From positions 43,157-107,156 of the forward strand of contig DAHWUD010000001.1 of assembly GCA_027331445.1 (NCBI GenBank): a stretch of DNA of 64,000 bases, read 5' to 3'. The notes under the pieces were generated by a model, which worked only from the letters and a program-made list of their open reading frames with translations, ran no database searches and had not been told where the DNA came from. This document shows, one piece after another, positions 19,455 through 47,990 of the stretch. The stretch is from Candidatus Amesbacteria bacterium. Lineage in GTDB: Bacteria > Patescibacteriota > Microgenomatia > CAZETR01 > Amesbacteraceae. The stretch's first letter is position 1. Each line of letters opens with the position of its first letter. Position numbers and translations under genes: made by a program.

Positions 19455-19463
19455 CCCATCCGC

Positions 19464-21314
19464 ATGTATCTTGCTTACCTGATCATTTTTCTGGCGGTCT
19501 TGCTGTTTTTTATCTTCCCGGCAGGCGCCCTCCTCGGTGACTGGTTCCTGCAGACCGATTCTTCCCCCGCCATTTCCGTTTCCCTGGGCCTGCTTGTGGT
19601 TACCCTGGAAGCCTATCTTTTAGGCCTGAGCCATTTGTACCCCCTGACCTTGCCTCTAATTGTTCTACAGGCCATTATCATCTGGCGGTACTTCCATCGC
19701 CGACATCTCTTTGTCAGCCTGCTTTCTCCCCGCCGCCTGTCATTGGTGGGAGCCGGTTTTGTTCTCCTGAGCGTTTTTATAAACAGCCTCCAGTTATTCC
19801 CTTTTGGTGCCGTCACCTCTAAAGGAATTTCTCTGTACGGGGCCCACTTTGTCGATTCCACCTGGCATTTGTCGCTCATCAACAGCCTTTCCCGATCCGT
19901 TCCCCCGCCCAACCCCCTTTATTCTGGCCTTCTGGTCACCAATTACCACTATTTGGTTGATCTGCAAATAGCTCTCATTCACAATCTTACCCGCATTCCC
20001 GTTCCGGTCTTATATTTCCAAATCATCGGCCCCTTTTACCTGTTGCTGCTCTCACTTCTGATTTATCGCTTTTCCGTTTCCTTATCGGGTCGGGCGCTCA
20101 CGGGAGTAATGGCTCTCTGTTTTATTATGCTGAGCAGCAATTGGTATTATTTTGCCCGGCTGGTTTTTCCTCTCGCGTCTGTTACTCCTTCAGTTGCCTG
20201 GGTCGAATTTTTCACCACCAAAACCGTCAATTATCCCTTATTGGTTTCACTCATCCTCCTTTTTGTTGTCCTTGAGATTATTCGGACAAGGCCCAGTCTT
20301 TCCCTTGCCCAAGCTCTTGTTTTGGGCTTTTTAACGGGCAGCATTTTTGGTATTAAGTCGCATACCGCCGTAGTTTTAGTGGCTGCATTGGGTTTCGTAG
20401 CTCTGCTAAATCTTTTTAGGAAAAATTTTTACTGGCCCCTCGTTTTTGTAGTTTCACTCATCACCGTTTTTATATTTTCCCAGTTGGTAATTTCCTCTCC
20501 CGCAGGGGGACTGCAATTTAGTCCCCTGTGGTTTATCAAAGTGATGTATGAAAGCACAGACCATTTAAATTTCCCCACCTGGGAGCTTCGCCGTCAGACT
20601 TTGTTAGCTCTCGGCTCATATCTCGGAATCGTCAGATTGTATTTCCAAGGCCTGTCCTGGTTTTTGTTCTTAAACTTCGGCCCCTTGCTTTTAGGTGTTG
20701 TGGCCCTGCTTGATAAAAAATTGGACCGGAATATAAAAACAGTTTTACTGGGTCTTTTTCTATTCGGGCTGTTGGCCACCTTTTTGTTTATTTATACCGC
20801 CACTGCCATTGTCACCATCCAGTTTGTTTACCTGTCGCTAGTCGCGGCCTCAATTCTAACTGCCTATTTTCTGTCCCGATTTTCCCGTTTTGTGGCCGTT
20901 TTCGCTTTTGTCGTCATCTGGCTGTCATTGCTTCCGGGCACTGCTTCCCTTACCGCCCAATATCTTAATTGGTCAAAGTCCTACAGTGTCTCTCCGGCCT
21001 TAACCGCCGCCTTAGTGTTCTTGACCAAGCTGCCTCCGGGAACCATTCTCACCGATGACACCTTTTCCGCCGGGTCATTCGTCCCAGCCTATTCAGGGGA
21101 CACCGTATATTTGGGCGACCATCAAATTTTAACCAGCTTGGGAATCGATTACTCAGATCGGAAAAAATACCCCGTTTCCTGCATCAAACCGCCGTACTCA
21201 ATAGCTTATATCCTTGCTCGCAGCCCCGTCTTAGATTGTCAGGCCCCGATTTTTGATTTAAACGGTGTTTATATCTACTTGGCCTCAAATAGTCCCCACA
21301 GCAGGTTACCGTAA
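19464..21314 (+). CDS. large polytopic membrane protein, function unknown (possible GT-C/polymerase)
   Basis: 616 aa, hydrophobic throughout; GC content drops in its 3' half; its 3' end overlaps the convergent minus-strand MTase gene by 40 nt. Confidence 0.4.
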   Translation: MYLAYLIIFLAVLLFFIFPAGALLGDWFLQTDSSPAISVSLGLLVVTLEAYLLGLSHLYPLTLPLIVLQAIIIWRYFHRRHLFVSLLSPRRLSLVGAGFVLLSVFINSLQLFPFGAVTSKGISLYGAHFVDSTWHLSLINSLSRSVPPPNPLYSGLLVTNYHYLVDLQIALIHNLTRIPVPVLYFQIIGPFYLLLLSLLIYRFSVSLSGRALTGVMALCFIMLSSNWYYFARLVFPLASVTPSVAWVEFFTTKTVNYPLLVSLILLFVVLEIIRTRPSLSLAQALVLGFLTGSIFGIKSHTAVVLVAALGFVALLNLFRKNFYWPLVFVVSLITVFIFSQLVISSPAGGLQFSPLWFIKVMYESTDHLNFPTWELRRQTLLALGSYLGIVRLYFQGLSWFLFLNFGPLLLGVVALLDKKLDRNIKTVLLGLFLFGLLATFLFIYTATAIVTIQFVYLSLVAASILTAYFLSRFSRFVAVFAFVVIWLSLLPGTASLTAQYLNWSKSYSVSPALTAALVFLTKLPPGTILTDDTFSAGSFVPAYSGDTVYLGDHQILTSLGIDYSDRKKYPVSCIKPPYSIAYILARSPVLDCQAPIFDLNGVYIYLASNSPHSRLP

Positions 21315-22024
21315 GTTATTCCTGACTTCAGTTCCAGCCTGCACAGCCGCCCGGCAGCCATTTTGCCGGGAACCAAAAAAGAAAATAAGTTAAACGATCC
21401 GATCCTTTCTTTTACTAATCCCGCACTTTCCAAAATCTCCTCCAGGTTTTTCGGATCATACTTCGCCAGATGCTGTTCATCCTCCAACTTGGGCACGGCA
21501 CTGACCAGGTCCAACAGCCTCTCCAGTATCCGCCACGAACTTTTGTAGTTGGGCGTGATAATGCATATCCAGCCCCGGGGATTGAGCATTTTGGTGAGCT
21601 GTTTCAACATTGCTTTTGCCTCCCCGATTCTAATGTGCTCGATCACGTCCATCATGACTATCAGGTCAAACTTTTCTGCTATCCCGGCTTGCCCGATGCT
21701 TCGGATGTCTGCTTGCCTCAATGTCACATTCTTAATTTTTTTATCATTCAGTGTTTTTTTCAAAAAGGCCAATGCCTCATCATTGTAATCCACACCCACA
21801 ATTTTCGCGACGGATTTGGCAAATCTGAATTCAAAATTGCCGGAACCTGTTCCCAGGTCAAGAATCTTCATATTCGGACGAATTAATCCTTCCACTGCAA
21901 TCAGCTTGTTGTTATGCCAATTGGATTGAAAAAAATTTCCGCTTCTGATTGCCTTATACTGATAATCCGCCGGAATTCCCAACTGCTTTTCTATAATAGT
22001 CCCTTTAAGACGGCTTTTTGTCAT
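21275..22024 (-). CDS. class I SAM-dependent methyltransferase
   Basis: ILDLGTGSGNF (motif I), VGVDYNDEALAF, DLIVMMDVIEH, LNPRGWICIITPN. Confidence 0.75.
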   Translation of the reverse strand: MTKSRLKGTIIEKQLGIPADYQYKAIRSGNFFQSNWHNNKLIAVEGLIRPNMKILDLGTGSGNFEFRFAKSVAKIVGVDYNDEALAFLKKTLNDKKIKNVTLRQADIRSIGQAGIAEKFDLIVMMDVIEHIRIGEAKAMLKQLTKMLNPRGWICIITPNYKSSWRILERLLDLVSAVPKLEDEQHLAKYDPKNLEEILESAGLVKERIGSFNLFSFLVPGKMAAGRLCRLELKSGITYGNLLWGLFEAK

Positions 22025-22054
22025 ATAATACTCGCTGGATATAGATCATTATAT
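22024..22054 (+). promoter_or_regulatory. candidate divergent promoter region (TATAAT at 22024-22029) between minus-strand MTase and GT4 gene
   Basis: 31-nt AT-rich intergenic spacer TATAATACTCGCTGGATATAGATCATTATAT between divergent start codons; perfect -10 hexamer; no -35 assessed. Confidence 0.2.
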
Positions 22055-23176
22055 ATGAACATTCTCATTTTAAATTGGCGGGATCCCAAAAATCCGCGTT
22101 CCGGTGGTGCAGAAGTCATCACTTATAAATACGCTAAATATTGGACTTCCCGGGGCCACCATGTTTTTTGGGTATCTAATTATTTTTCCGGTGCCAAATT
22201 AATCTCGTACGAACCAAACTTGACGATTTTCAGAATTAGGCCCGAACTTGGATACACGGTTAAAGGTTTAATCCTCTCATACCCGTTATTTCTCCGGAAC
22301 GCAACCGGAAAGGCCATCCAGATAATGAAAGAAAACCGGATAGATTTGGTCGTCGACGAAATTCATGGGTTGCCTTTTTTTACCCCTTTTTATTCCAGAC
22401 CCCGGCACGTCTTGCTTGTCTGTGAAGTAGCCGGACCAATTTGGGACAAGATGTTCCCTTTCCCCATTAGTAAAATCGGTAAACTCCTCGAAAAGATAAT
22501 TTACATTCTTTATCAGAATACTGAAACTTGGGCCATATCCCAAAATTCCCAAAAGGACATCTTTAATCTAAATCACAATAAAAATATTAAAATTCTTCCT
22601 TTGGGGATAGATCCTTCTCCTATTTCGTCGAAACCTAAATTTCCCTATCCTTCGGCCGTTTTCCTGGGACGGTTGGTCAGGATGAAGGGGATTGAATCAG
22701 CAATTTACGCCGCCGGCAGGATAAGCTATGAATTCCCCAAATTTAAACTTTACGTTGCCGGAGCCGGGTCTGAAGAATACCTGAATTTTCTCAAAAGCAA
22801 AGCCAAAGAAATAAAGGCCCGAAACAGCGTAATATTTTGCGGATACCTTTCCGACGCTCAAAAAAAACAGTTATTGGCCAAAAGCCATTTTCTTATTCAT
22901 CCATCTTTCAAGGAGGGCTTCGGATTAACCATTCTCGAAGCGGCTTCTGTGGGCACACCGGCGATAGCCAGGAAAGGCAGCAGTCTCGATGAGTTAGTCA
23001 AAGACAGGGTGACTGGATTTTTATTTACGAAAGATTCGGATATCAGCGCCTGTTTTAAAGCAGGCATGCTCAAGTCAAATTACGCCGCGCTGCAGTCAAC
23101 GGCAGTCCTGAATAGCCGAAGGTATTTCTGGGATGCTGTCCTTAAGAAATCCGGTTCAATCACCGGAATAAAATGA
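22055..23176 (+). CDS. GT4 family glycosyltransferase
   Basis: ORF track 21914..23176 overlaps the minus-strand MTase; preferred start ATG 22055 (MNILILNWRDPKNPRSGGAEV); C-terminal KEGFGLTILEAASVGTPAIARKGSSLDELV. Confidence 0.7.
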   Translation: MNILILNWRDPKNPRSGGAEVITYKYAKYWTSRGHHVFWVSNYFSGAKLISYEPNLTIFRIRPELGYTVKGLILSYPLFLRNATGKAIQIMKENRIDLVVDEIHGLPFFTPFYSRPRHVLLVCEVAGPIWDKMFPFPISKIGKLLEKIIYILYQNTETWAISQNSQKDIFNLNHNKNIKILPLGIDPSPISSKPKFPYPSAVFLGRLVRMKGIESAIYAAGRISYEFPKFKLYVAGAGSEEYLNFLKSKAKEIKARNSVIFCGYLSDAQKKQLLAKSHFLIHPSFKEGFGLTILEAASVGTPAIARKGSSLDELVKDRVTGFLFTKDSDISACFKAGMLKSNYAALQSTAVLNSRRYFWDAVLKKSGSITGIK

Positions 23177-24291
23177 ATATGCCAGTATATATATTCATCG
23201 GCACAACGGCAGAATTTATTAAAATTTCACCGGTCATTAAAGAGCTTAGAAGGAATCATGTCCAGTTTTGCCTAATTACTTCAGGCCAGGGAAAAATAAA
23301 TTTTGAGGAATTCAGGCCGTATCTTGGCCCTATAAAAGCCGACATCTCATTCGAACACAAGGGAGAAAAATCGTCTACCTTACATTTTGCCGTCTGGGCA
23401 GTCAGGACTCTGCTCGTGAGTTTGGTGTCGCTTCGGGACGTATTCCCAAAGTCAGATCGCGGGCAAACCCTCCTCGTCGTCCACGGCGATACCGTGTCTT
23501 CCCTGTGGGGTGCGCTGATCGCCTATGTCTACAAACTAAAGTTGGTTCATATCGAATCGGGACTGCGGTCATTCAATTTTTTGGAGCCTTTCCCTGAGGA
23601 AATATGCAGATATTTGCTTTCCCGGGTTGCCCGCATTAATTTTTGCCCCAATCAATGGAGTGTTGATAATTTAAGATCACGAAAGGGTATTAAAATTGAT
23701 ACTTTCCAAAACACACTCATTGATATTCATAAGTTTGCGGTCAGCCGAAAAATTAAACCGCCGCACATTCCTTCGAAATATTTTGTCCTGGTGATTCACC
23801 GCCAGGAACATGTAATTTTTGACCGCGGGAAGACACTCAGGATTATTAAGGAAATTTTAAATGCCACACCCCGATTGCCGTGCGTCTTTATCATGCATCG
23901 TCTGACCTCGAATTTTATTGACTCGCTGGGGCTTGAAGACTCATTTTTGAAAAATAAGCGCCTTATTTTATTGCCTAGGCTCTCATATTTTGAGTTTACC
24001 TCCCTTTTGCATAACTCTCAGTTTGTCATCACGGACGGAGGCAGCAACCAGGAAGAGTGCTATTACCTGGGCAAACCCTGCCTGATACTGAGAAATAGAA
24101 CCGAGAGAATTGAGGGTCTGGGTGAAAATGCGGTCCTGGGAGGCTTCAGCACAAAATATATTAGGGACTTTATCGGCAATTATAAACAATACGTTCGTCG
24201 TCCTATTGCCGCTTCCGCATCTCCGTCCGGGATAATCGGAAATTACCTGAAGGACTCGATACGGGACACTTCCAATTATGGCCGGAATTAA
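23173..24291 (+). CDS. UDP-N-acetylglucosamine 2-epimerase-like (non-hydrolysing, WecB/MnaA family)
   Basis: LLVVHGDTVSSLWGALIAYVYKLKLVHIESGLRSFNFLEPFPEEICRYL and FVITDGGSNQEECYYLGKPCLILRNRTERIEG align with the HVEAGLRS...PFPEE and SGGIQEEAP...RDTTERPE regions of WecB. Confidence 0.7.
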   Translation: MNMPVYIFIGTTAEFIKISPVIKELRRNHVQFCLITSGQGKINFEEFRPYLGPIKADISFEHKGEKSSTLHFAVWAVRTLLVSLVSLRDVFPKSDRGQTLLVVHGDTVSSLWGALIAYVYKLKLVHIESGLRSFNFLEPFPEEICRYLLSRVARINFCPNQWSVDNLRSRKGIKIDTFQNTLIDIHKFAVSRKIKPPHIPSKYFVLVIHRQEHVIFDRGKTLRIIKEILNATPRLPCVFIMHRLTSNFIDSLGLEDSFLKNKRLILLPRLSYFEFTSLLHNSQFVITDGGSNQEECYYLGKPCLILRNRTERIEGLGENAVLGGFSTKYIRDFIGNYKQYVRRPIAASASPSGIIGNYLKDSIRDTSNYGRN

Positions 24292-25345
24292 AATCAGCAT
24301 AATTGTTGCCACTTTTAACTCCGAATCCACGCTTCCCCAAGTCCTGGCCTCAATCGATAGACAAAAATTTCCCAAAAAATCGATTGAAACGTTAGTAGTT
24401 GACGGAGGCTCTACGGATAGGACCAAACAAATAGCCAGGAAGTTTGGTGCCAGGATCATCAATAATCCGAAAACCCAGCAAAACTATGCTAAATTCCTGG
24501 GTTTTACCAGAAGTCACGGAAGATATCTTCTTTTTTTAGACTCGGACGAAATGCTCGTGGACCCGACGAGCCTCAGGCGCAAAATCGATTTTTTTTCAAA
24601 ACACCACGAAATAAAGGTCGCTATTCCCAGCGGTTATCTGACCGGTCCCAAAAACTCAATTGTTGCCAATTTTGTGAATGAATTTGGGGATCCTTTTTCC
24701 TTTTTCATCTATCGTCTCTCAAAAAGTTCCGACAGGTTTATACGGACCATGCGCGGTCGATACCCGGTCCGGCTAGAAAATGACAACTTCCTGGTAGTGG
24801 AAATCAAAAATGCTTCTCAAATTCCGATCCTTGAGCTGACGGCCGGCGGTAGCATGTTTGATTCGATTTATTTCAGGCAAAACTTCCCAACTGCAATCCG
24901 CGGCCCCGAACTGCTAAATCATGCCTTCTATCTGATCAACTCGCTGTCACCCCTGCTGGCAATTACTAAGGACGACCCGATTATTCACCACCCATCCGGC
25001 TCTCTTAAAAATTACCTGAACAAGCTTTCCTGGCGCATCAAGAACAATATCTATTTTAAGGATACTATGGGAATTTCAGGGTACTCTGGCAGGGAGGAAT
25101 ACCAAATTGGTCTGACAAACCGATTAAAAAAATTCATGTTTATTCCTTATTGCCTCACAATTCTATTTCCGGTAGTTGATTCAATCTCATTATCCGTTTC
25201 CCGTAAAGATGTGAAATATTTGCTTCATTTCCCGTTAAGTGAATATACAGCCATGTTGATCATTTTTCATTTAGTTGCGAAATCCTTCGGAATCATGCCT
25301 TCGCTCAACACTTATGGATCCAATCAGCTCATCGCAAAACCTTGA
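24278..25345 (+). CDS. GT2 family glycosyltransferase
   Basis: ISIIVATFNSESTLPQVLASIDRQKF...VVDGGSTDRT...LFLDSDE. Confidence 0.65.
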   Translation: MAGIKISIIVATFNSESTLPQVLASIDRQKFPKKSIETLVVDGGSTDRTKQIARKFGARIINNPKTQQNYAKFLGFTRSHGRYLLFLDSDEMLVDPTSLRRKIDFFSKHHEIKVAIPSGYLTGPKNSIVANFVNEFGDPFSFFIYRLSKSSDRFIRTMRGRYPVRLENDNFLVVEIKNASQIPILELTAGGSMFDSIYFRQNFPTAIRGPELLNHAFYLINSLSPLLAITKDDPIIHHPSGSLKNYLNKLSWRIKNNIYFKDTMGISGYSGREEYQIGLTNRLKKFMFIPYCLTILFPVVDSISLSVSRKDVKYLLHFPLSEYTAMLIIFHLVAKSFGIMPSLNTYGSNQLIAKP

Positions 25346-25357
25346 TTACCTTTGATT

Positions 25358-26197
25358 CTACGCTTCCCAGAAGCTGTTCTGAATTGACAATTTAGCCAGG
25401 GGATGGAAGTTTTTTGATAAATATTGAGTCAGTCTTTTTACATCGAACGCATCCTCGATTAACATCGTTGCACCATTGTATCTATCAAAAAAATGTTTAG
25501 CCCCTTGTAGTACTTCCACCTCATGCCCCTCTACATCAATCTTAACGAAGACTTTGGATTTGAATTTCAATCGCGGATTTTTGAATATACTGTCGAGCTT
25601 GGCCGTCTTGACGGTAATTTGTTCACTCGTTTTAAAGCTCACAATCATTTTTGCCGGTTTGAAATAGTAAAACCTCTTTAATCCGTCGTGGTTACTTAAG
25701 GCGACGTTAAACAACCGGACATTTTTTAGTTTGTTTTCCCTCACGTTTTTAGAAAGTAGCTTGAAACTCACCGGATCCGGCTCAAACGAAACGGTTTTTA
25801 AGTGAGAGCCATGCGTATTTGCCAATTTAGCAATAGCCACGGTGTATTTACCGAATCCGGCTCCAATATCAATAAATGTCACATCAACCCCTTCGAGGAT
25901 TTCTTTGATTATTAGCGAAATTAATTTATTTATGTCCACTCTTTCAAACGCGGGGGAAGCAGTCTCAATGTCAAACAGCGTTTCCCTGACAAAAAAATTC
26001 CCAAACCTTGTTTTTAGTAATAATTCCTTTGATCGTGTAGTTGTTGCCGATTTAAACTTCAGAAGCGCGTAAAAAAGGAATTCAAATTCATTAATGAATA
26101 CCTTGAATTGATAATTGCGGCATTCAAAAGGGGAAATTAGTTTACAAAATATTAATTGAGGATAAAACCTCAACTTTGATAGTACATCCATCCGCAT
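25358..26197 (-). CDS. FkbM-family methyltransferase
   Basis: FIDIGAGFGKYTVAIAKL ... VKIDVEGHEVEVLQGA, the characteristic FkbM pair of motifs. Confidence 0.7.
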   Translation of the reverse strand: MRMDVLSKLRFYPQLIFCKLISPFECRNYQFKVFINEFEFLFYALLKFKSATTTRSKELLLKTRFGNFFVRETLFDIETASPAFERVDINKLISLIIKEILEGVDVTFIDIGAGFGKYTVAIAKLANTHGSHLKTVSFEPDPVSFKLLSKNVRENKLKNVRLFNVALSNHDGLKRFYYFKPAKMIVSFKTSEQITVKTAKLDSIFKNPRLKFKSKVFVKIDVEGHEVEVLQGAKHFFDRYNGATMLIEDAFDVKRLTQYLSKNFHPLAKLSIQNSFWEA

Positions 26198-26256
26198 AGT
26201 GGGATTTTATCCCAACCATTGGGTTAAAGCCATGTTCCGAGTTATACTTGTAGCCA

Positions 26257-28467: not shown

Positions 28468-28493
28468 TCTCAGGCATGTAGTACAATTCACCC

Positions 28494-30592: not shown

Positions 30593-30605
30593 CAGTGCTT
30601 CTTCG

Positions 30606-33162: not shown

Positions 33163-33167
33163 TCCTT

Positions 33168-33827: not shown

Positions 33828-33877
33828 ATATCGGTTCTTAAGCTATTAAATAATCAAAAATAATATAGAATAATCTC
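33828..33877. promoter_or_regulatory. candidate divergent promoter region between minus-strand HAD/NT cassette and + strand genes
   Basis: 50-nt AT-rich spacer (…TTAAGCTATTAAATAATCAAAAATAATATAGAATAATCTC) between divergent start codons, contains TATAGAAT -10-like element. Confidence 0.2.
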
Positions 33878-35125: not shown

Positions 35126-35136
35126 AATCACTCAAA

Positions 35137-38137: not shown

Positions 38138-38139
38138 CT

Positions 38140-38835
38140 ATGAAGAACCTCCTTCGAGAAACCCCGAATACCAACTTACATGGACGCCGCTTATACAGTG
38201 TCAACTTTGTTGCCGACAAAGACATTCGCTCAAAGAAAATTTTGGACATCGGCTGCGGATTTGGGTGGTGTGAGGTTAACTTCTTAAACCGCGGGGTTGG
38301 GGAAATTGTCGCCACCGAAATCTCCACAGCAGACTTGAATGCCATACGCTCTGGCCTTAAACATCCCAGGTTAAAAACCCGGGTGGCCAGCGCCCTGAAT
38401 CTCCCTTTTACAGCTAACATTTTTGACACGGTCGTTTGCTGGGAAGTCATCGAACACCTCCCCTTTCATACCGAAAATGAAATGTTCTCCCAAATATTTC
38501 GGGTTCTAAAACCCGGTGGCTCATTTTATCTGTCAACCCCGTTTGCCCATCCCATCTCCATGTTGTCAGATCCTGCCTGGTTATTAATTCATCATCGCCA
38601 TTATTCCCAGGAACAATTATCTTCTTACGGGAGACAACACGGCTTTATTACGGAAGAAGTTTTTACTCGCGGTCGGAATTGGGAAGCCATTTTCATCTTG
38701 GACCTATATTTTTCCAAGTGGTTCCTCCGTCACCCTCCGCTTCTTGGCGATTTTTTAGACCGTCGGATTGATATAGAATACAAACTACCGGGGTACATAG
38801 GCATTTTTGTAAAATATCGTAAACCATACAAATGA
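38140..38835 (+). CDS. class I SAM-dependent methyltransferase
   Basis: ILDIGCGFGWCEV, FDTVVCWEVIEHL, LKPGGSFYLSTP. Confidence 0.7.
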   Translation: MKNLLRETPNTNLHGRRLYSVNFVADKDIRSKKILDIGCGFGWCEVNFLNRGVGEIVATEISTADLNAIRSGLKHPRLKTRVASALNLPFTANIFDTVVCWEVIEHLPFHTENEMFSQIFRVLKPGGSFYLSTPFAHPISMLSDPAWLLIHHRHYSQEQLSSYGRQHGFITEEVFTRGRNWEAIFILDLYFSKWFLRHPPLLGDFLDRRIDIEYKLPGYIGIFVKYRKPYK

Positions 38836-39533
38836 CTAATATTTTTCACCACCTTTACAAAGGAGCGGAAGAGATAAATACCGCTAATTTGATCGCCTGT
38901 CTGAAAAGAACCGGACCCCACAAGAGTTTACTGGATGTAGGCTGCTGGGACGGCAAAAACACTCTGATTTGGGCCAGGGCGGCCGGAGCCAAACAGCTAT
39001 ATGGCTTGGAAGCCGTCAGATCAGCATCCAAGATAGCTAACCAAAAACATATCCGGACATTTTCTGCCCGGGCCGACCGTGACAGGTGGCCGTTTCCCCC
39101 CCACTCTTTTAACTGCGTCATCTCCAATCAGGTGATTGAGCATTTGAGCGATCTTGATCATTTTTTCTCAGAAAGCTCCCGTGTCCTTACCCGGGGCGGA
39201 TATCTTATTTCTAGTACCAATAACCTCTCCAGCTGGCATAATATTTTTGCGACTCTTTTAGGTTGGGCTCCTTTTGATTTTTCAAATTCTTCTTCGAAAG
39301 CCCAAGGTATTGGCAACCCATTAGCTGTCCACCGGGGGGAACATGACCCCCGTGGCTCCACCTGGACCCACAAGTGCATCTATACCACCCGCTGGTTATC
39401 CGAATGGGGTCGGCTTTATCATTTGGAACTAAAATATGTTTATGGGGCCGGTTACTACCCCTTTCCTGCCTGGCTGGGACGGCTCGAACCCACTCACGCC
39501 GCTTTTATCACCCTCGCCATGCAATCTTCATGA
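38832..39533 (+). CDS. class I SAM-dependent methyltransferase
   Basis: LLDVGCWDGKNT, FNCVISNQVIEHL, LTRGGYLISSTNN; ATGA coupling. Confidence 0.65.
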   Translation: MTNIFHHLYKGAEEINTANLIACLKRTGPHKSLLDVGCWDGKNTLIWARAAGAKQLYGLEAVRSASKIANQKHIRTFSARADRDRWPFPPHSFNCVISNQVIEHLSDLDHFFSESSRVLTRGGYLISSTNNLSSWHNIFATLLGWAPFDFSNSSSKAQGIGNPLAVHRGEHDPRGSTWTHKCIYTTRWLSEWGRLYHLELKYVYGAGYYPFPAWLGRLEPTHAAFITLAMQSS

Positions 39534-40606
39534 CCATTCTGGCTTTATGTTGGCATCCGGGTAAGACGAATATTCAAACTGCCGGCGGTTTTAAGCGTTT
39601 TTATGAGGTACTCAAACACGCACCCTGCCCAGTTACCGTTCTGGACAAATACCCCAGTATCTACTCTCAGATTAATAATCCCCGGGTGACCGTTATTGAA
39701 TATGGGCGAAATCGGGAATTTACCTGGATAACCGACCGGTTTGTTTCCGCCTGCTACCTTCTGCTACAGGCCTTTCGTCTCCGGCCGCGCCCATCCGTTA
39801 TATATGTTCCCTTTAGCGAATTGCCGCATTTATCCTTCGTTGCTGTCATCTTGAAATTGGCCTTTCACTGCCGCCTGGTATTTTGCAATCTGAATATCAA
39901 CAGAATTTACACCGACCGGCTGGCCAACGTCTTTTTTCATCTCTTTGCCGACGAAATTATCACCCTGTCAAAGCCTCTTCAAAATGATCTGGCCAAAACC
40001 GGAATCTTTGCTACCTACGTCAATGGAGTCGGTTATGCCCCCCGTACGACGAGCATCCGTCACATAAAAAAACTCTATGACGCGATTTTTATTGGCCGTC
40101 ACACCCAGGAAAAAGGATTTAAGGACATGCTCGAAATTTGGGATATTTTGGTCAACCAGTGCTCGCACAAATTGAAATTGGTTACAATAGGGGACATTCC
40201 ACTGGTTTCTAAAAAGGGTATCGACGCCACCATCCGCCGCCTGGACTTGGGAAATACAATCAATTTTTGTGGAAACGTTTCTGACGACCAAAAAAATCTT
40301 CTCATAGGCCAATCGAAGATTTGCGTTTTTCCTTCATATTTTGAGGGCTGGGGTATTGTTCCCATGGAATGCCTGTCTGCTGGTTTGCCCGTAGTGGCTT
40401 ACAATCTTCCCGTATACCGCGAAAGTATTTCCTCCTCCAAGGCCTTCAGAGTCGTCCCCCTCGGGGACAAAGAGCGGTTTGCGTCCGAGGTGATTTCCGT
40501 GTTAAAACACTATTTACAACTTTCTCGGGAAGCCTTGAAGTGGGAACCGGCCTACACTTGGGATGCTATCTCTCACAAAGAATGGAAACTTATATGCCCC
40601 AGTTGA
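39530..40606 (+). CDS. GT4 family glycosyltransferase
   Basis: ORF track 39374..40606; preferred start ATG 39530 (ATGA overlap); C-terminal FEGWGIVPMECLSAGLPVVAYNLPVYRE. Confidence 0.6.
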   Translation: MTILALCWHPGKTNIQTAGGFKRFYEVLKHAPCPVTVLDKYPSIYSQINNPRVTVIEYGRNREFTWITDRFVSACYLLLQAFRLRPRPSVIYVPFSELPHLSFVAVILKLAFHCRLVFCNLNINRIYTDRLANVFFHLFADEIITLSKPLQNDLAKTGIFATYVNGVGYAPRTTSIRHIKKLYDAIFIGRHTQEKGFKDMLEIWDILVNQCSHKLKLVTIGDIPLVSKKGIDATIRRLDLGNTINFCGNVSDDQKNLLIGQSKICVFPSYFEGWGIVPMECLSAGLPVVAYNLPVYRESISSSKAFRVVPLGDKERFASEVISVLKHYLQLSREALKWEPAYTWDAISHKEWKLICPS

Positions 40607-41535
40607 ACGACATCATCAAGCCTAGTTTAAAACCGGCTCTAAAAAAAGGAGTTATCCCGAATTTCTTAACCCGTCTGGACAGGAATAAATCTCACCAGAG
40701 CGCTATCTGGTCGGCCAAGACTTACTCTACGGATCCCAGAACCCATGTCTTTACTACCATCCAAGAACATTTCAGCAACCGCCTTATTCATAGCTTAAAT
40801 ATTCCTAAAAACGGCGTAGTTGTCGACGTCGGTTGTTTTATTGGCGAAAAACTTTGGCAAATTGACAAAACTGAACCCTATTTAGGGGTGGGAATAGATA
40901 TCGCCATTCCGTCACTGGTTGCAGCCAAAAAGATTGACATTTATGGACACAAATTCATCGTTGCCGATATGGAAAATCTTCCCTTCAGGAATAATTCTGT
41001 TGACTTAATTATGGCTTTTGATGTTTTTGAGCATTTATCTCATCCGAAAAAAGGCTTTTCGGAAGTCGCCCGGGTGCTTAAACCCGGGGGACAGATATTG
41101 CTCCATACACCTATTAAGGACAATAAATGGTCCATGTTTTGGTGGAAACAACGACTATCCCCTCAAGCAGCTTTAAGGGATTATCAAGACGTCGGCCATA
41201 CGGCTGACAGAATATTATCCAGCAAGCAAATTCTCTCTTCACTTAGAAAAAACAACCTTCGTCCCAACAGGGAAATTTACTACAATTCCTTCTTCGTTCA
41301 TTTTTGGGATCGGGAGTTTATCAGAACTGCTGGCCAGCTCCTTACCAGACTATCTGCCACGCCAGGACCAAAAATTAATCAGGCTCGCACCCTTCATAAG
41401 GGCAACTTAGGCAAGATGAGGCGAGTATACGGCAGATATCTCATTCCCTTGCTCGAGGCTCTCTCCTTTCCTGATATGCTTTTATCCAAGTTGAAAGTCG
41501 GTAATACCTATTTCGTCCTTGCGACAAAGGATTAG
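40594..41535 (+). CDS. class I SAM-dependent methyltransferase
   Basis: ORF track 40369..41535; preferred start ATG 40594; VVDVGCFIGEKLWQ, VDLIMAFDVFEHL, LKPGGQILLHTP. Confidence 0.6.
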   Translation: MPQLNDIIKPSLKPALKKGVIPNFLTRLDRNKSHQSAIWSAKTYSTDPRTHVFTTIQEHFSNRLIHSLNIPKNGVVVDVGCFIGEKLWQIDKTEPYLGVGIDIAIPSLVAAKKIDIYGHKFIVADMENLPFRNNSVDLIMAFDVFEHLSHPKKGFSEVARVLKPGGQILLHTPIKDNKWSMFWWKQRLSPQAALRDYQDVGHTADRILSSKQILSSLRKNNLRPNREIYYNSFFVHFWDREFIRTAGQLLTRLSATPGPKINQARTLHKGNLGKMRRVYGRYLIPLLEALSFPDMLLSKLKVGNTYFVLATKD

Positions 41536-41537
41536 CA

Positions 41538-42656
41538 ATGCTGAAACTTCTTTTTTATTCACCGGTGAAACTTCAGGCTGGAGGTGGCTGCGAGCGTTGG
41601 CACTGTGACATTACCAATTCTTTAAAACATCAATTTTCCGACCAGGTGGAGATTGTGACAGCTGATTTAGGAGACAACAAGTGGACCGAAGATTATTTGC
41701 ACAAACAGCTGAGAGGCATCCCGTATACTCAGTTACATTTTTTACATTTCTTAGGTGTCCTAGTCCCGACACCGAAAACGGCATTTTTTTTGTACCGAAA
41801 ATTCTGCGAATCAGACGCAATTCATTTTATCTATGGGTTTGCTGGACAGGACATCATGGTACTTCTTTTAAAGTTGTTTACTCGTAAGCGTGTAGTTGTT
41901 GGCCATCATGCCCCCATCTTTCATTCGTCGCCATTCCACAATTTTTACATGAGCAACATTTCTTCCAGATTACTGAATTTTTTTGATGCTCATCAGACCT
42001 TGAATTCGCTGGATAAATCCTATATGGAAAAAAAATGGAAAATAAAGAATGTTCACTTTATCCCTAGCGGCATCAGAATAGAGCGTTTCTCCCCCCATGG
42101 CAGGAAGTCTCACTCCGTCCTAACTTGTCTAAGTGTGGGCAGGTATGAATTACAAAAAGGATTTGATTTCCTGTTGGAAGCCATCGATATGTTTAATCGC
42201 ACCATTCCCAACAACTCAGCCCGGTTCTATTTCGTTGGGGCTGGAACTTTAAAAACTTTGATTGCCCGGTTTGCCAGAAAAAACCCTAATATCTTTGATT
42301 TAGGTTATATCCCTTACGAAAAGATGCCCTCAATTTACGCCAAGTCGGATTTATTTATTCTTTCTTCGCGTGAAGAACCGTTCGGCCTGGTTTTGGTGGA
42401 AGCGTGGGCGTCTGGAATACCGGTATTGGCAACTCGCACTGAAGGACCAAACGACATGCTAAATCCCCGCAATGGCATTTTTATATCTGAAATTTCTGCT
42501 GATGCTATGTGTAAATCACTCATTTCTATGTATAGACTCTGGTCTTGCGGTCGGTTAAAATCGAAATTTAAGACATCCGATCTCTTAAACAGTGCCCAAA
42601 AATTCAGCATCGACTTGACTGCCCAAAGAATGCACGATCAATTATTTCAGGTATGA
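41538..42656 (+). CDS. GT4 family glycosyltransferase
   Basis: EEPFGLVLVEAWASGIPVLATRTEGPNDML. Confidence 0.65.
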   Translation: MLKLLFYSPVKLQAGGGCERWHCDITNSLKHQFSDQVEIVTADLGDNKWTEDYLHKQLRGIPYTQLHFLHFLGVLVPTPKTAFFLYRKFCESDAIHFIYGFAGQDIMVLLLKLFTRKRVVVGHHAPIFHSSPFHNFYMSNISSRLLNFFDAHQTLNSLDKSYMEKKWKIKNVHFIPSGIRIERFSPHGRKSHSVLTCLSVGRYELQKGFDFLLEAIDMFNRTIPNNSARFYFVGAGTLKTLIARFARKNPNIFDLGYIPYEKMPSIYAKSDLFILSSREEPFGLVLVEAWASGIPVLATRTEGPNDMLNPRNGIFISEISADAMCKSLISMYRLWSCGRLKSKFKTSDLLNSAQKFSIDLTAQRMHDQLFQV

Positions 42657-43444
42657 CAGCTTTTTTAATACAATTAATTTTACTGCTCACTGACGCGGAC
42701 ATCTCCATTTCAGACAGGCTCAGATACCTCTTTCTCATCCCCATTTCCTTGTTTGCCTCAGCTACGCCTTTTGGCCTAAGGCGTACCTATTCTCTTAAAG
42801 GTGCCCAATTCTATTATTTAGGCAACCATCGCAACCTCTTTTTAGATCATTTGTCGAGCCATCTTAATGTCTATAAAAAATATTATCGTAATGCTGAAAC
42901 CGTAATTGATATCGGAGCCAGCTTCGGCACTTTTCCTCTCATCGCCTCATACTTCAACCCCCAGACACACTTCTATTGTCTGGAAATGGCCAAATCCAGT
43001 TTTCAAATACTTCAAAAGAATCTCCAAAATGTCACACGAGCCTCGGCATATTGTCTTGCAGCGGGAAGTAGTAATAAACAGATTACCTATTTCTATAATC
43101 GGGATTACCCCGAGGGCTCCCTGATTAACAGTCGTGGGAAAGCCAACAATTCTGTCCAAATGACCACACTCGACAATTTTGTTAAGGTCCATAAAATTTC
43201 TCGAGTTTCACTTTTAAAAATTGATACCGAGGGTTATGAATTAAACGTCTTAAAAGGGGCACGGGAGACTTTAAATATCACCCGCTCCGTTATCGTTGAG
43301 ACGGATTTTACCCCCCCCAACCTGTCAGCAGTTTTTGATTTACTCTCTCACAGAGGTTTCGTGTTGGTGAACTTCGGAGAAGTCAATTTCAATCGTCTAA
43401 CTAACCGTATTGGGTCGTGCGACCTGGTTTTTCAGAAAGTCTAA
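42653..43444 (+). CDS. FkbM-family methyltransferase
   Basis: VIDIGASFGTFPL ... LKIDTEGYELNVLKGARETL; ATGA coupling. Confidence 0.65.
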   Translation: MTAFLIQLILLLTDADISISDRLRYLFLIPISLFASATPFGLRRTYSLKGAQFYYLGNHRNLFLDHLSSHLNVYKKYYRNAETVIDIGASFGTFPLIASYFNPQTHFYCLEMAKSSFQILQKNLQNVTRASAYCLAAGSSNKQITYFYNRDYPEGSLINSRGKANNSVQMTTLDNFVKVHKISRVSLLKIDTEGYELNVLKGARETLNITRSVIVETDFTPPNLSAVFDLLSHRGFVLVNFGEVNFNRLTNRIGSCDLVFQKV

Positions 43445-43445
43445 T

Positions 43446-44126
43446 ATGCCTGTTAATTTAAAACAACATTACGATACCAACTGGCAACGCCTGGAAGGCT
43501 ATCAGATGTCGGAAAAAATTGCCCGGGTGGGCTACGCTCTTTTGTCGCATTACCCAGGTCGTCGCTGTTTGGATGTTGGCTGCGGAGACGGAACCAACCT
43601 AGAGAAACTGAAACAGATTGGCCTGGATGCCTGGGGCTGTGACATTTCAAGCGTCGCCGTCGGTAAGACCCGCCGGAAAGGGTTTCACGCCCAAGTAGTC
43701 GATCTGAACAACGATAAACTGCCTTATAAAAGCGGACAATTTGATATTGTTTGGTTGACGGACGTAATCGAGCACGTTTTTTGGCCCGAGTCAGTTATCC
43801 GGGAGCTATCGCGGATCACAGTCCCCGGCGGTTTACTTTTTATTTCCACCCCCAATGTTTCTTGGTGGGGTAACCGGTTTCAGCTCCTTTTCGGCCATAC
43901 TCTGACTGATATCCACCCTGAACATATTCATTGGTACAACCATACTGGTCTGATTCACCTTCTCACGGCCAATAATTACGCTGTAGTAGGGGAAGTTTCT
44001 TATAAAAGGCTTATCCCGTATCCGATTACCGCGGCCCTTCCTTGGCTGGAAGCCTTAAATCCGATTGCTGCCCCAAATTCCCTTTTTAGCTTCACCTTTG
44101 CCGTATTGGCACGAAACAGGCGATAA
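43446..44126 (+). CDS. class I SAM-dependent methyltransferase
   Basis: ORF track 43410..44126; preferred start ATG 43446 just after upstream TAA; CLDVGCGDGTNL, FDIVWLTDVIEHV, VPGGLLFISTPN. Confidence 0.7.
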   Translation: MPVNLKQHYDTNWQRLEGYQMSEKIARVGYALLSHYPGRRCLDVGCGDGTNLEKLKQIGLDAWGCDISSVAVGKTRRKGFHAQVVDLNNDKLPYKSGQFDIVWLTDVIEHVFWPESVIRELSRITVPGGLLFISTPNVSWWGNRFQLLFGHTLTDIHPEHIHWYNHTGLIHLLTANNYAVVGEVSYKRLIPYPITAALPWLEALNPIAAPNSLFSFTFAVLARNRR

Positions 44127-44134
44127 TTGTCGTC

Positions 44135-45235
44135 ATGAAAGCACCAAAAGCTGTTAAATCATTGATTATCATCATCGGCATCCCGGCTCTTTTGTTTATC
44201 TTGGGCTTTTTTCTCTCCTCAGTCCAGTTTTACCGCCAGGAAATCAGTTTTTTAAGCTTAACCAAGAACCATTCCACCAACGACATTACTTCTTCTCCGG
44301 CAGGAAATCTGCTGGCTGGAAACAAAATCAGTGGGAAATTTGTCGCCTATGACGATTACCTTGGTATCGTTAGCGTCAGGTTTGATACATTCTACCGAAT
44401 TAATGACGACTGGCTTGTTTTTAGAATTAAACAGCTGGGTGATTCAAAGTGGTACTACGAAAACTACTATAAGGTTGATCAATTTCAGTCTCACGAACTT
44501 TTTCCATTCGGATTCCCCATCATTAAAAATTCGGCCGGAAAGACATATGTTTTTGAAATCGAATCGACAACAGGAACCTCTGATGATTCAGTAGCGCTGG
44601 ACAAAACCTACCCGGTGTTTATCAGTATTTACAAATACCCCAGAAAAGTGGTTTTCAGCGGTTTTGGGCCTTTGCAGAAATTCCTACCTGAAAAGTTAGC
44701 TAGCTTTAGAAACGAAAACATCGGGAGGACAATTCAAGCTAATAAAACCATTAGGTTCATCTTCAAGAAATTTTTTAACATAGTTATCAATACTCAAATC
44801 CCGGTACTAGGTTTCTTTTATTTTCTTCCACTGATTATTTATCTCTTTTGGCTAGTGATTTACCGACGACCAAAAACTAAGAAGTCTTATATGCTGGCAA
44901 TTCTTTTTTTGCTGACGTTCATCGAGATAATAATAATTGCAGAATCGATTGACTTTATAGTTTTGGAAATATTTCTCATGTGGATCTGGGCTGTTTGGTA
45001 TTACAAATTGAAGAATCTGGACATTTTTGTTCTTGCCTTTATTTTGTTAGGTCTTTGCCCTCTGTTTTTGTTGATGAATCTTAATGATATTTCCGAGAAA
45101 ATTGGTGCCTGGTCATTCCTGTTTTTTGTCATCGCTATCTTCCAACTCGCTATCGAACAAAAATTTCATCACGGAAGAAGAGTCAGCATTCTCAGTGTTT
45201 TGCGAAAAATTCCTAAAGACTTCCATGACCGCTAA
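44135..45235 (+). CDS. hypothetical membrane protein (N-terminal anchor, ~190-aa extracytoplasmic domain, C-terminal TM bundle)
   Basis: 366 aa; TM at residues ~8-30, soluble segment, then 4-5 hydrophobic segments; AT-rich like the rest of the island. Confidence 0.4.
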   Translation: MKAPKAVKSLIIIIGIPALLFILGFFLSSVQFYRQEISFLSLTKNHSTNDITSSPAGNLLAGNKISGKFVAYDDYLGIVSVRFDTFYRINDDWLVFRIKQLGDSKWYYENYYKVDQFQSHELFPFGFPIIKNSAGKTYVFEIESTTGTSDDSVALDKTYPVFISIYKYPRKVVFSGFGPLQKFLPEKLASFRNENIGRTIQANKTIRFIFKKFFNIVINTQIPVLGFFYFLPLIIYLFWLVIYRRPKTKKSYMLAILFLLTFIEIIIIAESIDFIVLEIFLMWIWAVWYYKLKNLDIFVLAFILLGLCPLFLLMNLNDISEKIGAWSFLFFVIAIFQLAIEQKFHHGRRVSILSVLRKIPKDFHDR

Positions 45236-47967: not shown

Positions 47968-47990
47968 GGCATTTCTCATATAATGGCCTG

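What the first reader, a model, noticed from the sequence alone, without database searches (positions are those of the whole stretch)
20100..45230. About 24 kb low-GC island embedded in the GC-rich locus, enriched in methyltransferases
The central part of the window is visibly more AT-rich, with A/T-ending codons and runs of AAA/ATT. The flanks are rich in CTG/GCC/CCG. Both transitions lie inside ORFs (19464..21314 and about 45225), not at obvious intergenic junctions.

The island carries:
- 7 of the 10 methyltransferases, including both FkbM-type enzymes;
- the UDP-GlcNAc 2-epimerase-like and RmlD-like genes;
- the minus-strand nucleotidyltransferase/HAD cassette;
- 4 GT4 and 2 GT2 genes;
- the two 730-aa membrane-protein paralogs.

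This looks like a horizontally acquired, or differently evolving, variable cassette that adds a modified-sugar branch to the core pathway. It would be a glycan serotype-like hypervariable region.
Basis: seen in the sequence. Interest (0 to 1): 0.7.

Follow-up and report, generated by a model that had tools for sequence, protein, structure and literature searches.

The report
Swapped low-GC centre of glycan locus
The AT-rich 25 kb stretch is real: it is the variable, serotype-like centre of a very large cell-surface sugar-polymer gene cluster in a tiny uncultured (Patescibacteria/Microgenomates-type) bacterium. It was most likely swapped in by recombination from a lower-GC relative, which is a familiar kind of event seen here in an unfamiliar group.

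Summary
GC is 0.428 inside 19950..45850 and 0.522 outside (lnL gain 277).

The whole 64 kb is one glycan locus of a Microgenomates-type Patescibacteria genome. Sister loci share both flanks in the same order (52-80% aa identity). Between the same two boundary genes identity falls to 30-58% and gene content differs. Variable genes group the lineages differently from flank genes.

The flanks carry an extreme, strand-fixed synonymous signature (A 6%, C 48% on the + strand). The island carries it only weakly (A 19%, C 33%).

The left boundary gene, a 616-aa GT-C glycosyltransferase, is a mosaic. A maximum chi-squared breakpoint at residue 209 (nt ~20091) coincides with the compositional break.

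An independent assembly that is 99.98% identical spans the right junction, so this is not a chimera. There is no tRNA, integrase or flanking repeat.

Best reading: an ancestral, syntenic variable module was replaced by homologous recombination from a lower-GC relative and is roughly half ameliorated. This is a replacement-type glycan island, a new member of a known kind. The genome background beyond the window could not be read.

The parts
18645..19454 (+). Last conserved left-flank gene: GT2 (polyprenyl-phosphate sugar synthase-like), host-type composition
   Evidence: Pfam Glycos_transf_2. 72-80% identical to sister loci A, B, C and D. Four-fold sites A 0.05, GC4 0.71-0.73.
19464..21314 (+). 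Left boundary gene: 616-aa, 14-TM GT-C-fold glycosyltransferase. It is a mosaic, with the junction at nt ~20091-20105.
   Evidence: No Pfam hit. AlphaFold pLDDT 89.5. Foldseek PDB top hits are STT3, AglB, PglB, DPY19 and AftA, E 4e-6. Compositional change-point at 20105. Maximum chi-squared at residue 209, permutation p~0.002.
21275..22024 (-). Class-I SAM methyltransferase
   Evidence: Pfam Methyltransf_31/23/25. 49% ortholog in L004.
21914..23176 (+). GT4 glycosyltransferase, backbone gene of the 'L067-type' allele class
   Evidence: Pfam Glycos_transf_1. 58% identical to L067 and 35-40% to the other sisters.
23173..24291 (+). WecB-like UDP-GlcNAc 2-epimerase family protein
   Evidence: Pfam Epimerase_2, E 2e-42. 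TIGR00236 scores 158.8 bits, below the 210 cut-off.
24278..25345 (+). GT2 glycosyltransferase
   Evidence: Pfam. Orthologs at 39-47% in L067 and L072.
25358..26197 (-). FkbM-family methyltransferase
   Evidence: Pfam Methyltransf_21 and a V_cholerae_RfbT hit. TIGR01444.
26257..28467 (+). 736-aa AftD-like GT-C membrane glycosyltransferase with a C-terminal beta-rich domain
   Evidence: No Pfam hit. pLDDT 90.3. Foldseek top hit is AftD 6w98, E 1e-8, followed by STT3, PglB, AftA and ArnT. Best non-self homolog is 53% identical.
28494..35125 (.). Window-specific block, absent from the sister variable regions examined (L004+L079, L067, L072, L080+L078). It holds an RmlD-like reductase, a GT4, a 255-aa unknown, two sugar-1-P nucleotidylyltransferases (-), a 107-aa ORF (-), a beta-phosphoglucomutase-family HAD (-) and a 415-aa unknown.
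   Evidence: Pfam. NCBIfam hits are all below the equivalog cut-offs. No ortholog-level matches in the closest sister loci L004, L067, L072 and L080; only weak family-level hits (25-34%) in the more distant L068 and L002. Same composition as the rest of the island.
35137..37311 (+). 724-aa paralog of the AftD-like GT-C
   Evidence: 34% identical to 26257..28467. No Pfam hit.
37304..38137 (+). GT2, backbone gene of the 'L067-type' allele class
   Evidence: Pfam. 58% identical to L067 and 36-45% to the other sisters.
38140..39533 (+). Two class-I SAM methyltransferases (38140..38835 and 38832..39533). They are the most conserved and most host-like genes of the island.
   Evidence: Pfam. 50-60% identical to sister loci. 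C4 0.42-0.44.
39374..40606 (+). GT4 (longest ORF given; the true start is probably near 39533)
   Evidence: Pfam. 37% ortholog in L067.
40594..41535 (+). Class-I SAM methyltransferase, called as 313 aa in the independent assembly
   Evidence: Pfam. Gene call in L081. 56-60% identical to L004 and L067.
41538..42656 (+). GT4
   Evidence: Pfam. 52-58% identical to L067 and L079.
42653..43444 (+). FkbM-family methyltransferase
   Evidence: Pfam Methyltransf_21.
43446..44126 (+). Class-I SAM methyltransferase, 226 aa as called in L081
   Evidence: Pfam. Gene call.
44135..45235 (+). 366-aa membrane protein of unknown family; the lowest-GC gene (0.377)
   Evidence: No Pfam or NCBIfam hit. About 5 TM segments. 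33-35% orthologs in sisters A and C.
45225..46571 (+). Right boundary gene: 448-aa PMT_2-like GT-C. The compositional junction lies at ~45470-45884.
   Evidence: Pfam PMT_2. The exact protein is on record. Change-point at 45488. 38% identical to sister A. No mosaic signal with the two relatives available.
46564..47967 (+). First conserved right-flank gene: 467-aa, 12-TM membrane protein with host-type composition
   Evidence: 52% identical to sister A. GC4 0.68-0.77. Gene call in L081.

Best explanation
The island (about 20.1-45.5 kb) is the variable, specificity-determining centre of a conserved surface-glycan locus larger than 64 kb, in a Patescibacteria genome of the Microgenomates type.

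The conserved flanks supply the common machinery: DPM1-like GT2 lipid-sugar synthases, two Wzx-type flippases, a Wzy_C-type protein, and arrays of PMT_2-like GT-C enzymes.

The centre supplies what sets the structure of the glycan:
- sugar-nucleotide enzymes (WecB-like epimerase, RmlD-like reductase, two nucleotidyltransferases, a beta-PGM-like HAD);
- four GT4 and two GT2 cytoplasmic transferases;
- seven SAM methyltransferases that would O-methylate the sugars;
- at least four membrane GT-C transferases acting outside the membrane.

In this genome the centre was replaced by homologous recombination with a lower-GC relative that carried the same locus architecture. The left crossover lies inside the 616-aa GT-C gene at nt ~20,090-20,105. 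The right crossover lies in or next to the PMT_2-like gene at ~45.5-45.9 kb. Since then the imported DNA has moved roughly half way towards the host's synonymous-site composition.

Shown here: the compositional break, synteny, the identity collapse, discordant allele classes, the left mosaic junction, and assembly independence. Inferred: the direction (island foreign, flanks native), the recombination mechanism on the right side, and all biochemical roles.
For: (1) Composition. GC is 0.428 vs 0.522, and the shift holds within protein families at all codon positions.

(2) Host mutational signature. Flank four-fold sites on the + strand are A .06, C .48, G .24, T .22; island sites are A .19, C .33, G .20, T .27. 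All six minus-strand genes (one flank, five island) show the opposite skew sign in coding sense. The asymmetry is therefore fixed to the DNA strand, not a codon preference. Relaxed selection would not weaken such a signature. A comparable whole-strand C>G disparity is reported for Microgenomates of order UBA1400 (PMC7143001).

(3) Synteny and identity step. Sister A (L080+L078) is 58-80% identical on the left flank and 52-66% on the right, but 30-56% between the same boundary genes. L072 drops from 77% to 39% across the 18645/19464 gene border.

(4) Discordance. Flank genes group {W,A,B} closest, then C, then D. Variable genes group differently: {W,D} at 58% for GT4 and GT2, {A,C,G}, {B,G}, {A,B2}.

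(5) Mosaic 616-aa gene. Informative sites where W matches A versus C are 40:18 before residue 213 and 36:69 after it. Maximum chi-squared falls at residue 209, permutation p~0.002. That is the same place as the compositional change-point.

(6) Size of the dip. In 28 more distant loci of this gene family the downstream region is on average only 0.9 GC points lower (sd 1.2). All those hosts have 30-44% GC, whereas the window drops about 9 points from 52%. The island's 0.43 lies within the range of the relatives.

(7) Not a chimera. L081, from another ENA assembly, is 99.98% identical over 40738..61997 and spans the right junction. The junction-spanning 616-aa protein is on record from NCBI, Logan and ENA.

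(8) No tRNA gene and no long repeat anywhere across the island region (18-48 kb); no integrase or transposase domain in any ORF of 150 aa or more.
Against: No donor or close relative of the island was found. The best hits are 53% (736-aa protein) and 49% (616-aa protein), and up to 58-60% for backbone genes against L067.

The rest of the 168.6-kb contig could not be fetched. That the flanks represent the genome background is therefore an assumption.

Five of seven sister loci also show a lower-GC centre at the same position, by 2.5 to 7.8 points. In sisters A and D the centre also has a weaker skew. This could reflect a locus-intrinsic bias rather than repeated import.

The right boundary gene shows no mosaic pattern with the two relatives available.

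Only one flank gene lies on the minus strand, so the strand-fixed nature of the flank signature rests on that gene plus the five island genes.
Confidence: 0.65

Rival explanations
1. Local compositional bias without transfer. The variable centre has always been in this lineage. It sits at a lower GC equilibrium because its genes evolve fast, under weak or diversifying selection and AT-biased mutation.
For: The backbone is syntenic and about as divergent from L067 as the flanks are. Five of seven sister loci also have a lower-GC centre between the same boundary genes. In 23 of 28 distant loci the downstream side is slightly AT-richer, Wilcoxon p=0.0016. No close donor was found.
Against: The general effect is about 1 GC point, whereas the window drops 9. 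Three sisters (C, E, F) show little or no dip. A strand-fixed mutational signature should be at least as strong in weakly selected genes, yet it is two to three times weaker in the island. The change is abrupt and intragenic, and it coincides with a switch in phylogenetic affinity. Allele classes disagree with the flank tree.
Confidence: 0.2
2. The reverse direction. The genome is about 43% GC, and the two high-GC, strongly skewed flanks are the acquired DNA.
For: The genome background was not visible. All sampled relatives have 30-44% GC, so 52% is the unusual value.
Against: This needs two separate imports, or one import later interrupted exactly between the conserved boundary genes. Both flanks share one very extreme, equilibrium-like four-fold composition out to both window ends. 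The flank phylogeny is coherent across about 20 genes.
Confidence: 0.07
3. Metagenome assembly chimera joining two populations that carry homologous loci.
For: The sequence comes from a metagenome. Both breaks lie inside conserved gene families.
Against: A second assembly from another sample is 99.98% identical across the right junction, and a third covers 25235..34068 at 99.97%. The junction-spanning proteins are on record from several sources. Both junction genes are intact and in frame, and the 616-aa model folds with pLDDT 89.5. At the aa identities seen among sampled lineages (~35-60% in the junction genes) long shared k-mers would not be expected, though the identity between host and donor at the junctions is unknown (inference).
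Confidence: 0.03
4. An integrative mobile element (prophage, ICE or integron-like island) inserted into the locus.
For: Atypical composition and several opposite-strand genes.
Against: No tRNA gene. No direct or inverted repeats at the edges. No integrase, transposase or phage domains in any ORF of 150 aa or more. The backbone is syntenic with sister loci.
Confidence: 0.02

Closest known systems
Replacement flexible genomic islands ('glycotype' islands) of aquatic bacteria; Lopez-Perez, Martin-Cuadrado & Rodriguez-Valera 2014, PMC4033161
   Same: Found at the same chromosomal position in related genomes. Encodes exposed-glycan synthesis. Different gene sets or very divergent alleles sit between conserved flanks. 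Exchange by homologous recombination is inferred from signals at the island borders.
   Different: That concept is defined among strains of one species. Here the comparison spans genus- to family-level lineages (flanks only 52-80% aa identical), and no conspecific strain with another cassette was found. The host is a reduced-genome Patescibacteria. The border signal here is a compositional and protein-level mosaic, not a peak of synonymous SNPs.
O-antigen (rfb) and capsule (cps) serotype loci of Enterobacteria and streptococci (from general knowledge)
   Same: Central serotype-specific glycosyltransferase, sugar-nucleotide and modification genes have lower GC than the genome. Conserved flanking genes serve as recombination anchors. 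Wzx- and Wzy-type proteins are present in the locus. An FkbM/RfbT-type methyltransferase acts as a serotype modifier in Vibrio cholerae.
   Different: No initiating phosphoglycosyltransferase (Bac_transf or WecA type) and no Wzz were detected in the window. The locus is dominated by at least 14 GT-C-type membrane proteins, including OST/AftD-like ones, which is not typical of rfb or cps loci. The cell-envelope type of the host is unknown.
Mycobacterial arabinan GT-C enzymes (AftD, AftA, EmbA/B) and STT3/PglB/AglB oligosaccharyltransferases
   Same: The predicted folds of the 736-aa and 616-aa proteins match these enzymes (Foldseek probability 1.0). The implication is extracytoplasmic transfer from polyprenyl-phosphate-linked donors.
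   Different: Only 10-13% sequence identity and TM-scores of 0.4-0.5. There is no sequence-level match to Pfam or PDB. Substrates and acceptors are unknown.

Membership tests
Replacement-type variable region of a surface-glycan locus | Occupies the same position between the same conserved flanking genes in related genomes | tested here: met
   Left anchors (GT-C x3, GT2, GT4, 377 aa, Wzx, GT2) and right anchors (467 aa, MT, GT2(-), FAD oxidoreductase, Wzx, and onward) are syntenic in L004+L079, L080+L078, L072 and L067.
Replacement-type variable region of a surface-glycan locus | Gene content and/or alleles differ sharply between lineages whose flanks are similar | tested here: met
   The variable region is about 8 kb in sister A, about 16 kb in C and about 25 kb in the window. 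Identity is 30-58% there against 52-80% in the flanks. Alleles fall into discrete classes.
Replacement-type variable region of a surface-glycan locus | Evidence of recombination at the borders | tested here: inconclusive
   Left border: met. The mosaic breakpoint at residue 209 of the 616-aa gene (p~0.002) coincides with the compositional change-point. Right border: a compositional break only; no mosaic signal with two relatives.
Replacement-type variable region of a surface-glycan locus | Alternative cassettes among strains of the same species | not testable with these tools
   The only near-identical assemblies (L001, L081) carry the same island. No conspecific genome with a different centre was retrievable.
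Wzx/Wzy-dependent O-antigen or capsule cluster | Initiating polyprenyl-phosphate phosphoglycosyltransferase (WbaP/Bac_transf or WecA/Glycos_transf_4) | tested here: not met
   No such Pfam domain in any ORF of 150 aa or more in the window. It could lie outside the window.
Wzx/Wzy-dependent O-antigen or capsule cluster | Wzx flippase and Wzy-type polymerase present | tested here: met
   Polysacc_synt at 17398..18648 and 50738..51997; Wzy_C at 60841..62190. All three are in the flanks, not in the island.
Integrative mobile genomic island | Integrase or recombinase, tRNA or att target, flanking direct repeats | tested here: not met
   No recombinase domains, no tRNA, and only short chance-level repeats.
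GT-C glycosyltransferase superfamily (616-aa and 736/724-aa proteins) | Multi-span GT-C fold resembling solved members | tested here: met
   Models have pLDDT 89.5 and 90.3. Foldseek probability is 1.0 to STT3, PglB, AglB, DPY19, AftA and AftD.
GT-C glycosyltransferase superfamily (616-aa and 736/724-aa proteins) | Conserved acidic residue in the first extracytoplasmic loop; lipid-phosphate-sugar donor | tested here: inconclusive
   G41-D42 is nearly invariant just after TM1 in the 736-aa family. D131 is invariant in the 616-aa family. Topology and catalysis were not tested.

The most novel reading that the evidence does not exclude
Microgenomates-type Patescibacteria carry a dedicated surface-glycan system dominated by GT-C enzymes, larger than 64 kb (several per cent of a ~1 Mb genome). 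Its central 'serotype' module is exchanged by homologous recombination across genus- or family-level lineages. In this host an extreme strand-fixed mutational bias acts as a built-in clock, showing the cassette to be about half ameliorated. This would indicate strong, phage- or host-driven diversifying selection on the surface of these episymbiont-like cells.
Probability: 0.3. Interest if true: 0.6.

Novelty: new member of a known kind. Interest (0 to 1): 0.4.

Why it matters
Little is known about the cell surface of Patescibacteria, although it must mediate attachment to hosts and exposure to phages. This locus shows that a reduced-genome lineage devotes a very large, conserved gene cluster to a methylated surface glycan. 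It also shows that the specificity-determining centre of that cluster turns over by recombination, as O-antigen and capsule loci do in well-studied bacteria. The host's extreme strand asymmetry gives an unusually clean, GC-independent marker for telling resident DNA from imported DNA. That marker could be reused across such genomes.

Tried and rejected
**Reading the window's own contig.** I tried to read beyond the window on its own 168.6-kb contig, to get the genome background. Four look-ups with edge genes failed because the contig is not in the position index. One exact-sequence look-up of alternative starts showed that only 86..1288 is on record.

**First GTDB scan.** The first scan with the single 616-aa protein found nothing. 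The alignment-based scan worked, but it returned only distant relatives (41% or less).

**L004-like lineage as donor.** Rejected: island genes are not closer to L004 than flank genes are.

**Codon-position disequilibrium.** I checked by hand against the Muto-Osawa regressions (coefficients recalled from memory) using the GC1-3 values. The window and the sister regions show the same offsets, so the test was uninformative.

**Mosaic test on the right boundary gene.** No signal with two relatives.

**Other negative searches.**
- Profile searches of both unknown membrane families against PDB sequences found nothing.
- Rfam found no RNA family in the window.
- NCBIfam gave only sub-threshold family-level hits for the sugar-nucleotide enzymes, so no specific sugar pathway can be named.

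**Mobile element and chimera readings.** Both were considered and rejected; see the rival explanations.

Full report

Yes. The 1-kb GC profile runs at 0.49-0.58 in the flanks and 0.385-0.486 (mostly 0.39-0.46) between 20 and 46 kb. A two-change-point likelihood fit puts the island at 19950..45850, with GC 0.428 inside and 0.522 outside and an lnL gain of 277. Per-gene GC3 falls from 0.55-0.70 to 0.38-0.52.

The flanks are rich in membrane proteins, so I compared like with like. GT4, GT2, class-I methyltransferase and GT-C genes inside the island were each compared with the same family outside it. All differ in GC1, GC2 and GC3, in amino-acid use and in codon choice. Arg AGA+AGG is 40% inside and 8% outside; CTG is 21% inside and 40% outside. 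Mann-Whitney p is 8e-7 for GC3. The GC-normalised dinucleotide signature differs about twice as much between island and flank (57-65) as between the two flanks (33).

The one exception is that I count 9 methyltransferases in the window by Pfam, not 10.

**2. What is the window?**

All 64 kb form one glycan-assembly locus.
- Left flank: a YfhO-like protein, six or more tandem PMT_2-like GT-C paralogs of about 540 aa, GT2, GT4, a 377-aa membrane protein, a Wzx-type flippase, and a highly conserved GT2.
- Right flank: membrane proteins, MT, GT2(-), an FAD oxidoreductase, a second Wzx, GT2 x2, MT, GT4, GT2, PMT_2, GT4 x2, an acetyltransferase, a Wzy_C protein, and PMT_2.

Homologs of the 616-aa boundary protein, the 736-aa island protein and the oxidoreductase come almost only from Patescibacteria of the Microgenomates group. 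Named sources include Shapiro-, Woese-, Ames-, Davies- and Blackburnbacteria. The source is a metagenome contig of 168,596 bp. I could not retrieve the rest of it.

**3. Sister loci**

Seven related loci were recovered.
- **A:** a complete locus on Logan SRR21359456_0 (L080+L078).
- **C:** a complete locus on SRR33230362_300426 (L004+L079).
- **B, D, E, F, G:** partial loci L072, L067, L070, L002 and L068.

Both flanks are syntenic with the window. Against sister A, the left flank is 58-80% identical in protein and the right flank 52-66%. Everything from the 616-aa gene to the PMT_2-like gene is only 30-56% identical. Against L072, identity drops from 77% in the GT2 at 18645..19454 to 39% in the next gene.

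The variable stretch is about 8 kb in A, about 16 kb in C and about 25 kb in the window. A common backbone recurs: 616-aa GT-C, GT4, (Epimerase_2, GT2), ~700-aa GT-C, GT2, MT, MT, GT4, MT, ~350-aa membrane protein, PMT_2-like GT-C. The island is therefore not a foreign insertion into a core pathway. It is this genome's version of an ancestral variable module. A block at 28494..35125 and a duplicated ~700-aa gene are not seen in the sister variable regions examined (L004+L079, L067, L072, L080+L078); the more distant L068 and L002 give only weak family-level hits (25-34%) there.

**4. Different history of centre and flanks**

Pairwise identity matrices give one consistent grouping for six flank genes: W, A and B are closest (56-80%), then C, then D, then E and F. 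The variable genes disagree with this.
- For the GT4 and GT2 backbone genes, W pairs with D (58%), while A pairs with C and G, or B pairs with G.
- For the 616-aa gene, W is equidistant (41-45%) from all others, while A and B remain close to each other (56%).

These are discrete, deeply divergent allele classes distributed against the flank tree.

**5. A second, GC-independent host signature**

At four-fold degenerate sites the flank genes have A .06, C .48, G .24, T .22 on the + strand. Island genes have A .19, C .33, G .20, T .27. The two boundary genes are intermediate.

The one minus-strand flank gene and the five minus-strand island genes all show the opposite skew sign in coding sense. 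The asymmetry therefore belongs to the DNA strand, not to codon preference. A whole-chromosome C>G strand disparity has been described for some Microgenomates (PMC7143001).

A strand-fixed mutational signature should be at least as strong in weakly selected genes. Its two- to three-fold weakening in the island argues for shorter residence in this genome rather than relaxed selection.

If a donor had the composition of sister D's variable region, the island would lie 48-62% of the way to the host values for all four bases. This is my arithmetic on the figures, and it is inference only.

**6. Junctions**

Change-points on 10,365 four-fold sites fall at 20105 (support 20030-20372) and 45488 (support 45470-45884), with an lnL gain of 274.

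In the 616-aa protein, residues 1-213 are closest to A and G (50%). Residues 214-616 are least similar to A and B (34-37%) and closer to C, D, P0002 and P0003 (42-47%). Other pairs of sequences change by 6 points or less between the two segments. Informative sites where W matches A versus C are 40:18 before the break and 36:69 after it. The maximum chi-squared falls at residue 209, which is nt 20091, with permutation p~0.002. Two independent signals thus place a recombination junction at the same spot.

The right boundary gene (45225..46571) shows no such pattern with the only two relatives available.

**7. Is it just a local bias?**

Five of seven sister loci also have a lower-GC centre, by 2.5 to 7.8 points. 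Three of the seven (C, E, F) show little or no dip. In 28 more distant loci of the family the downstream side is only 0.9 points lower on average (sd 1.2; 23 of 28 negative). All of those hosts have 30-44% GC.

The window's host flanks, at 52%, are the GC-richest seen. Its 9-point drop is far outside that distribution, and the island's 0.43 falls within the range of the relatives. The simplest reading has two parts: a small general bias, plus import into an unusually GC-rich host from the ordinary lower-GC pool. Sister A, with a 7-9 point dip and loss of skew, may be a second case.

**8. Artefact and mobile-element checks**

- L081, from another ENA assembly (168,153-bp contig), is 99.98% identical over 40738..61997 and spans the right junction.
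- L001, from a third assembly, covers 25235..34068 at 99.97%.
- The junction-spanning proteins are on record from several sources.
- There is no tRNA, no meaningful flanking repeat, no recombinase domain and no Rfam hit.

**9. What the unknown membrane proteins are**

AlphaFold models built from family alignments are confident (pLDDT 89.5 and 90.3).
- The 616-aa protein matches the oligosaccharyltransferases STT3, AglB and PglB, plus DPY19 and AftA (E 4e-6, TM ~0.43).
- The 736-aa protein matches mycobacterial AftD best (E 1e-8), followed by STT3, PglB, AftA and ArnT.

Neither has a sequence-level match in Pfam or the PDB. With the PMT_2-like gene and the 724-aa paralog, the island therefore holds at least four GT-C enzymes.

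**10. Likely working (inferred from domain content)**

- Sugar-nucleotide enzymes make activated sugars. These are the WecB-like, RmlD-like, two nucleotidyltransferase and beta-PGM-like HAD proteins, all below the equivalog cut-offs.
- GT4 and GT2 enzymes build a lipid-linked oligosaccharide on the cytoplasmic face.
- Seven SAM methyltransferases O-methylate it. Two of them are FkbM/RfbT-like.
- After flipping by the flank Wzx proteins, the GT-C enzymes extend or transfer the glycan outside the membrane. Their donors would be polyprenyl-phosphate sugars made by the conserved DPM1-like GT2s.
- No initiating phosphoglycosyltransferase or Wzz was seen in the window.

**11. Verdict**

The closest known kind is the replacement-type glycan island, or the serotype region of O-antigen and capsule loci (PMC4033161). 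This is a new member of that kind in Patescibacteria.

The main open points are:
- the genome background;
- the donor;
- the right junction;
- whether conspecific strains carry other cassettes.

Noticed in passing
window 1..19950 and 45900..64000: Extreme strand-fixed asymmetry at four-fold sites: A 3-9%, C 42-59% on the + strand, AT skew about -0.57, GC skew about -0.34. The minus-strand gene 48738..49445 shows the complement. This resembles, and adds a T>A component to, the whole-chromosome C>G disparity reported for Microgenomates of order UBA1400 (PMC7143001).
   Followed up: partly
window 3518..14464: Six tandem PMT_2-like GT-C paralogs of about 530-550 aa, interrupted by a 415-aa membrane protein and preceded by a YfhO-like protein. 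Three or four of them are conserved in order in sister loci. Counting the island and right flank, the window holds at least 14 GT-C-type membrane proteins.
   Followed up: partly
window 17398..18648 and 50738..51997: There are two Wzx-type flippases, one in each conserved flank, and a single Wzy_C protein at 60841..62190. No initiating phosphoglycosyltransferase or chain-length regulator was detected. The locus may serve more than one glycan pathway.
   Followed up: no
window 28494..35125: This block is absent from the sister variable regions examined (L004+L079, L067, L072, L080+L078). It holds an RmlD-like gene, a GT4, a 255-aa unknown, two nucleotidyltransferases, a 107-aa ORF, a beta-PGM-like HAD and a 415-aa unknown. 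It sits between the two ~730-aa GT-C paralogs, which looks like a duplication plus insertion. Its composition matches the rest of the island.
   Followed up: partly
window 38140..39533: The two adjacent methyltransferases are the most host-like genes of the island (GC 0.45-0.49, C4 0.42-0.44) and the most conserved across lineages (50-60%). This hints that the island is itself a mosaic of segments of different age.
   Followed up: no
L080:12881-18172 (Logan SRR21359456_0): The sister locus has a minimal ~5 kb low-GC core (GC 0.28-0.31, against 0.38-0.39 in its flanks) with loss of strand skew. It lies between the orthologous boundary genes and may be a second, independent replacement event.
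   Followed up: partly
L079:7168-8582: In sister C the ortholog of the right boundary PMT_2-like gene is split into two ORFs of 184 and 286 aa. It may be a pseudogene or a frameshift at the junction gene.
   Followed up: no
L001:8829-8951: The last 123 nt of this 8,951-bp contig match window 33452..33330 in reverse orientation. This looks like a terminal inverted-duplication assembly artefact. The contig otherwise ends inside the island at both ends.
   Followed up: no
L081 vs window 40738..61997: The independent assembly differs at only four positions (50693, 51636, 54175, 61943). All four are in the right flank and none is in the ~4.8 kb of island covered. The numbers are too small to interpret.
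   Followed up: no
L006-L066 record titles: Many GTDB MAG records that carry this Microgenomates-type gene family are titled 'uncultured Gammaproteobacteria bacterium' (MAG TPA_asm, binchicken/SRP co-assemblies). The titles look like placeholder or wrong organism names.
   Followed up: no
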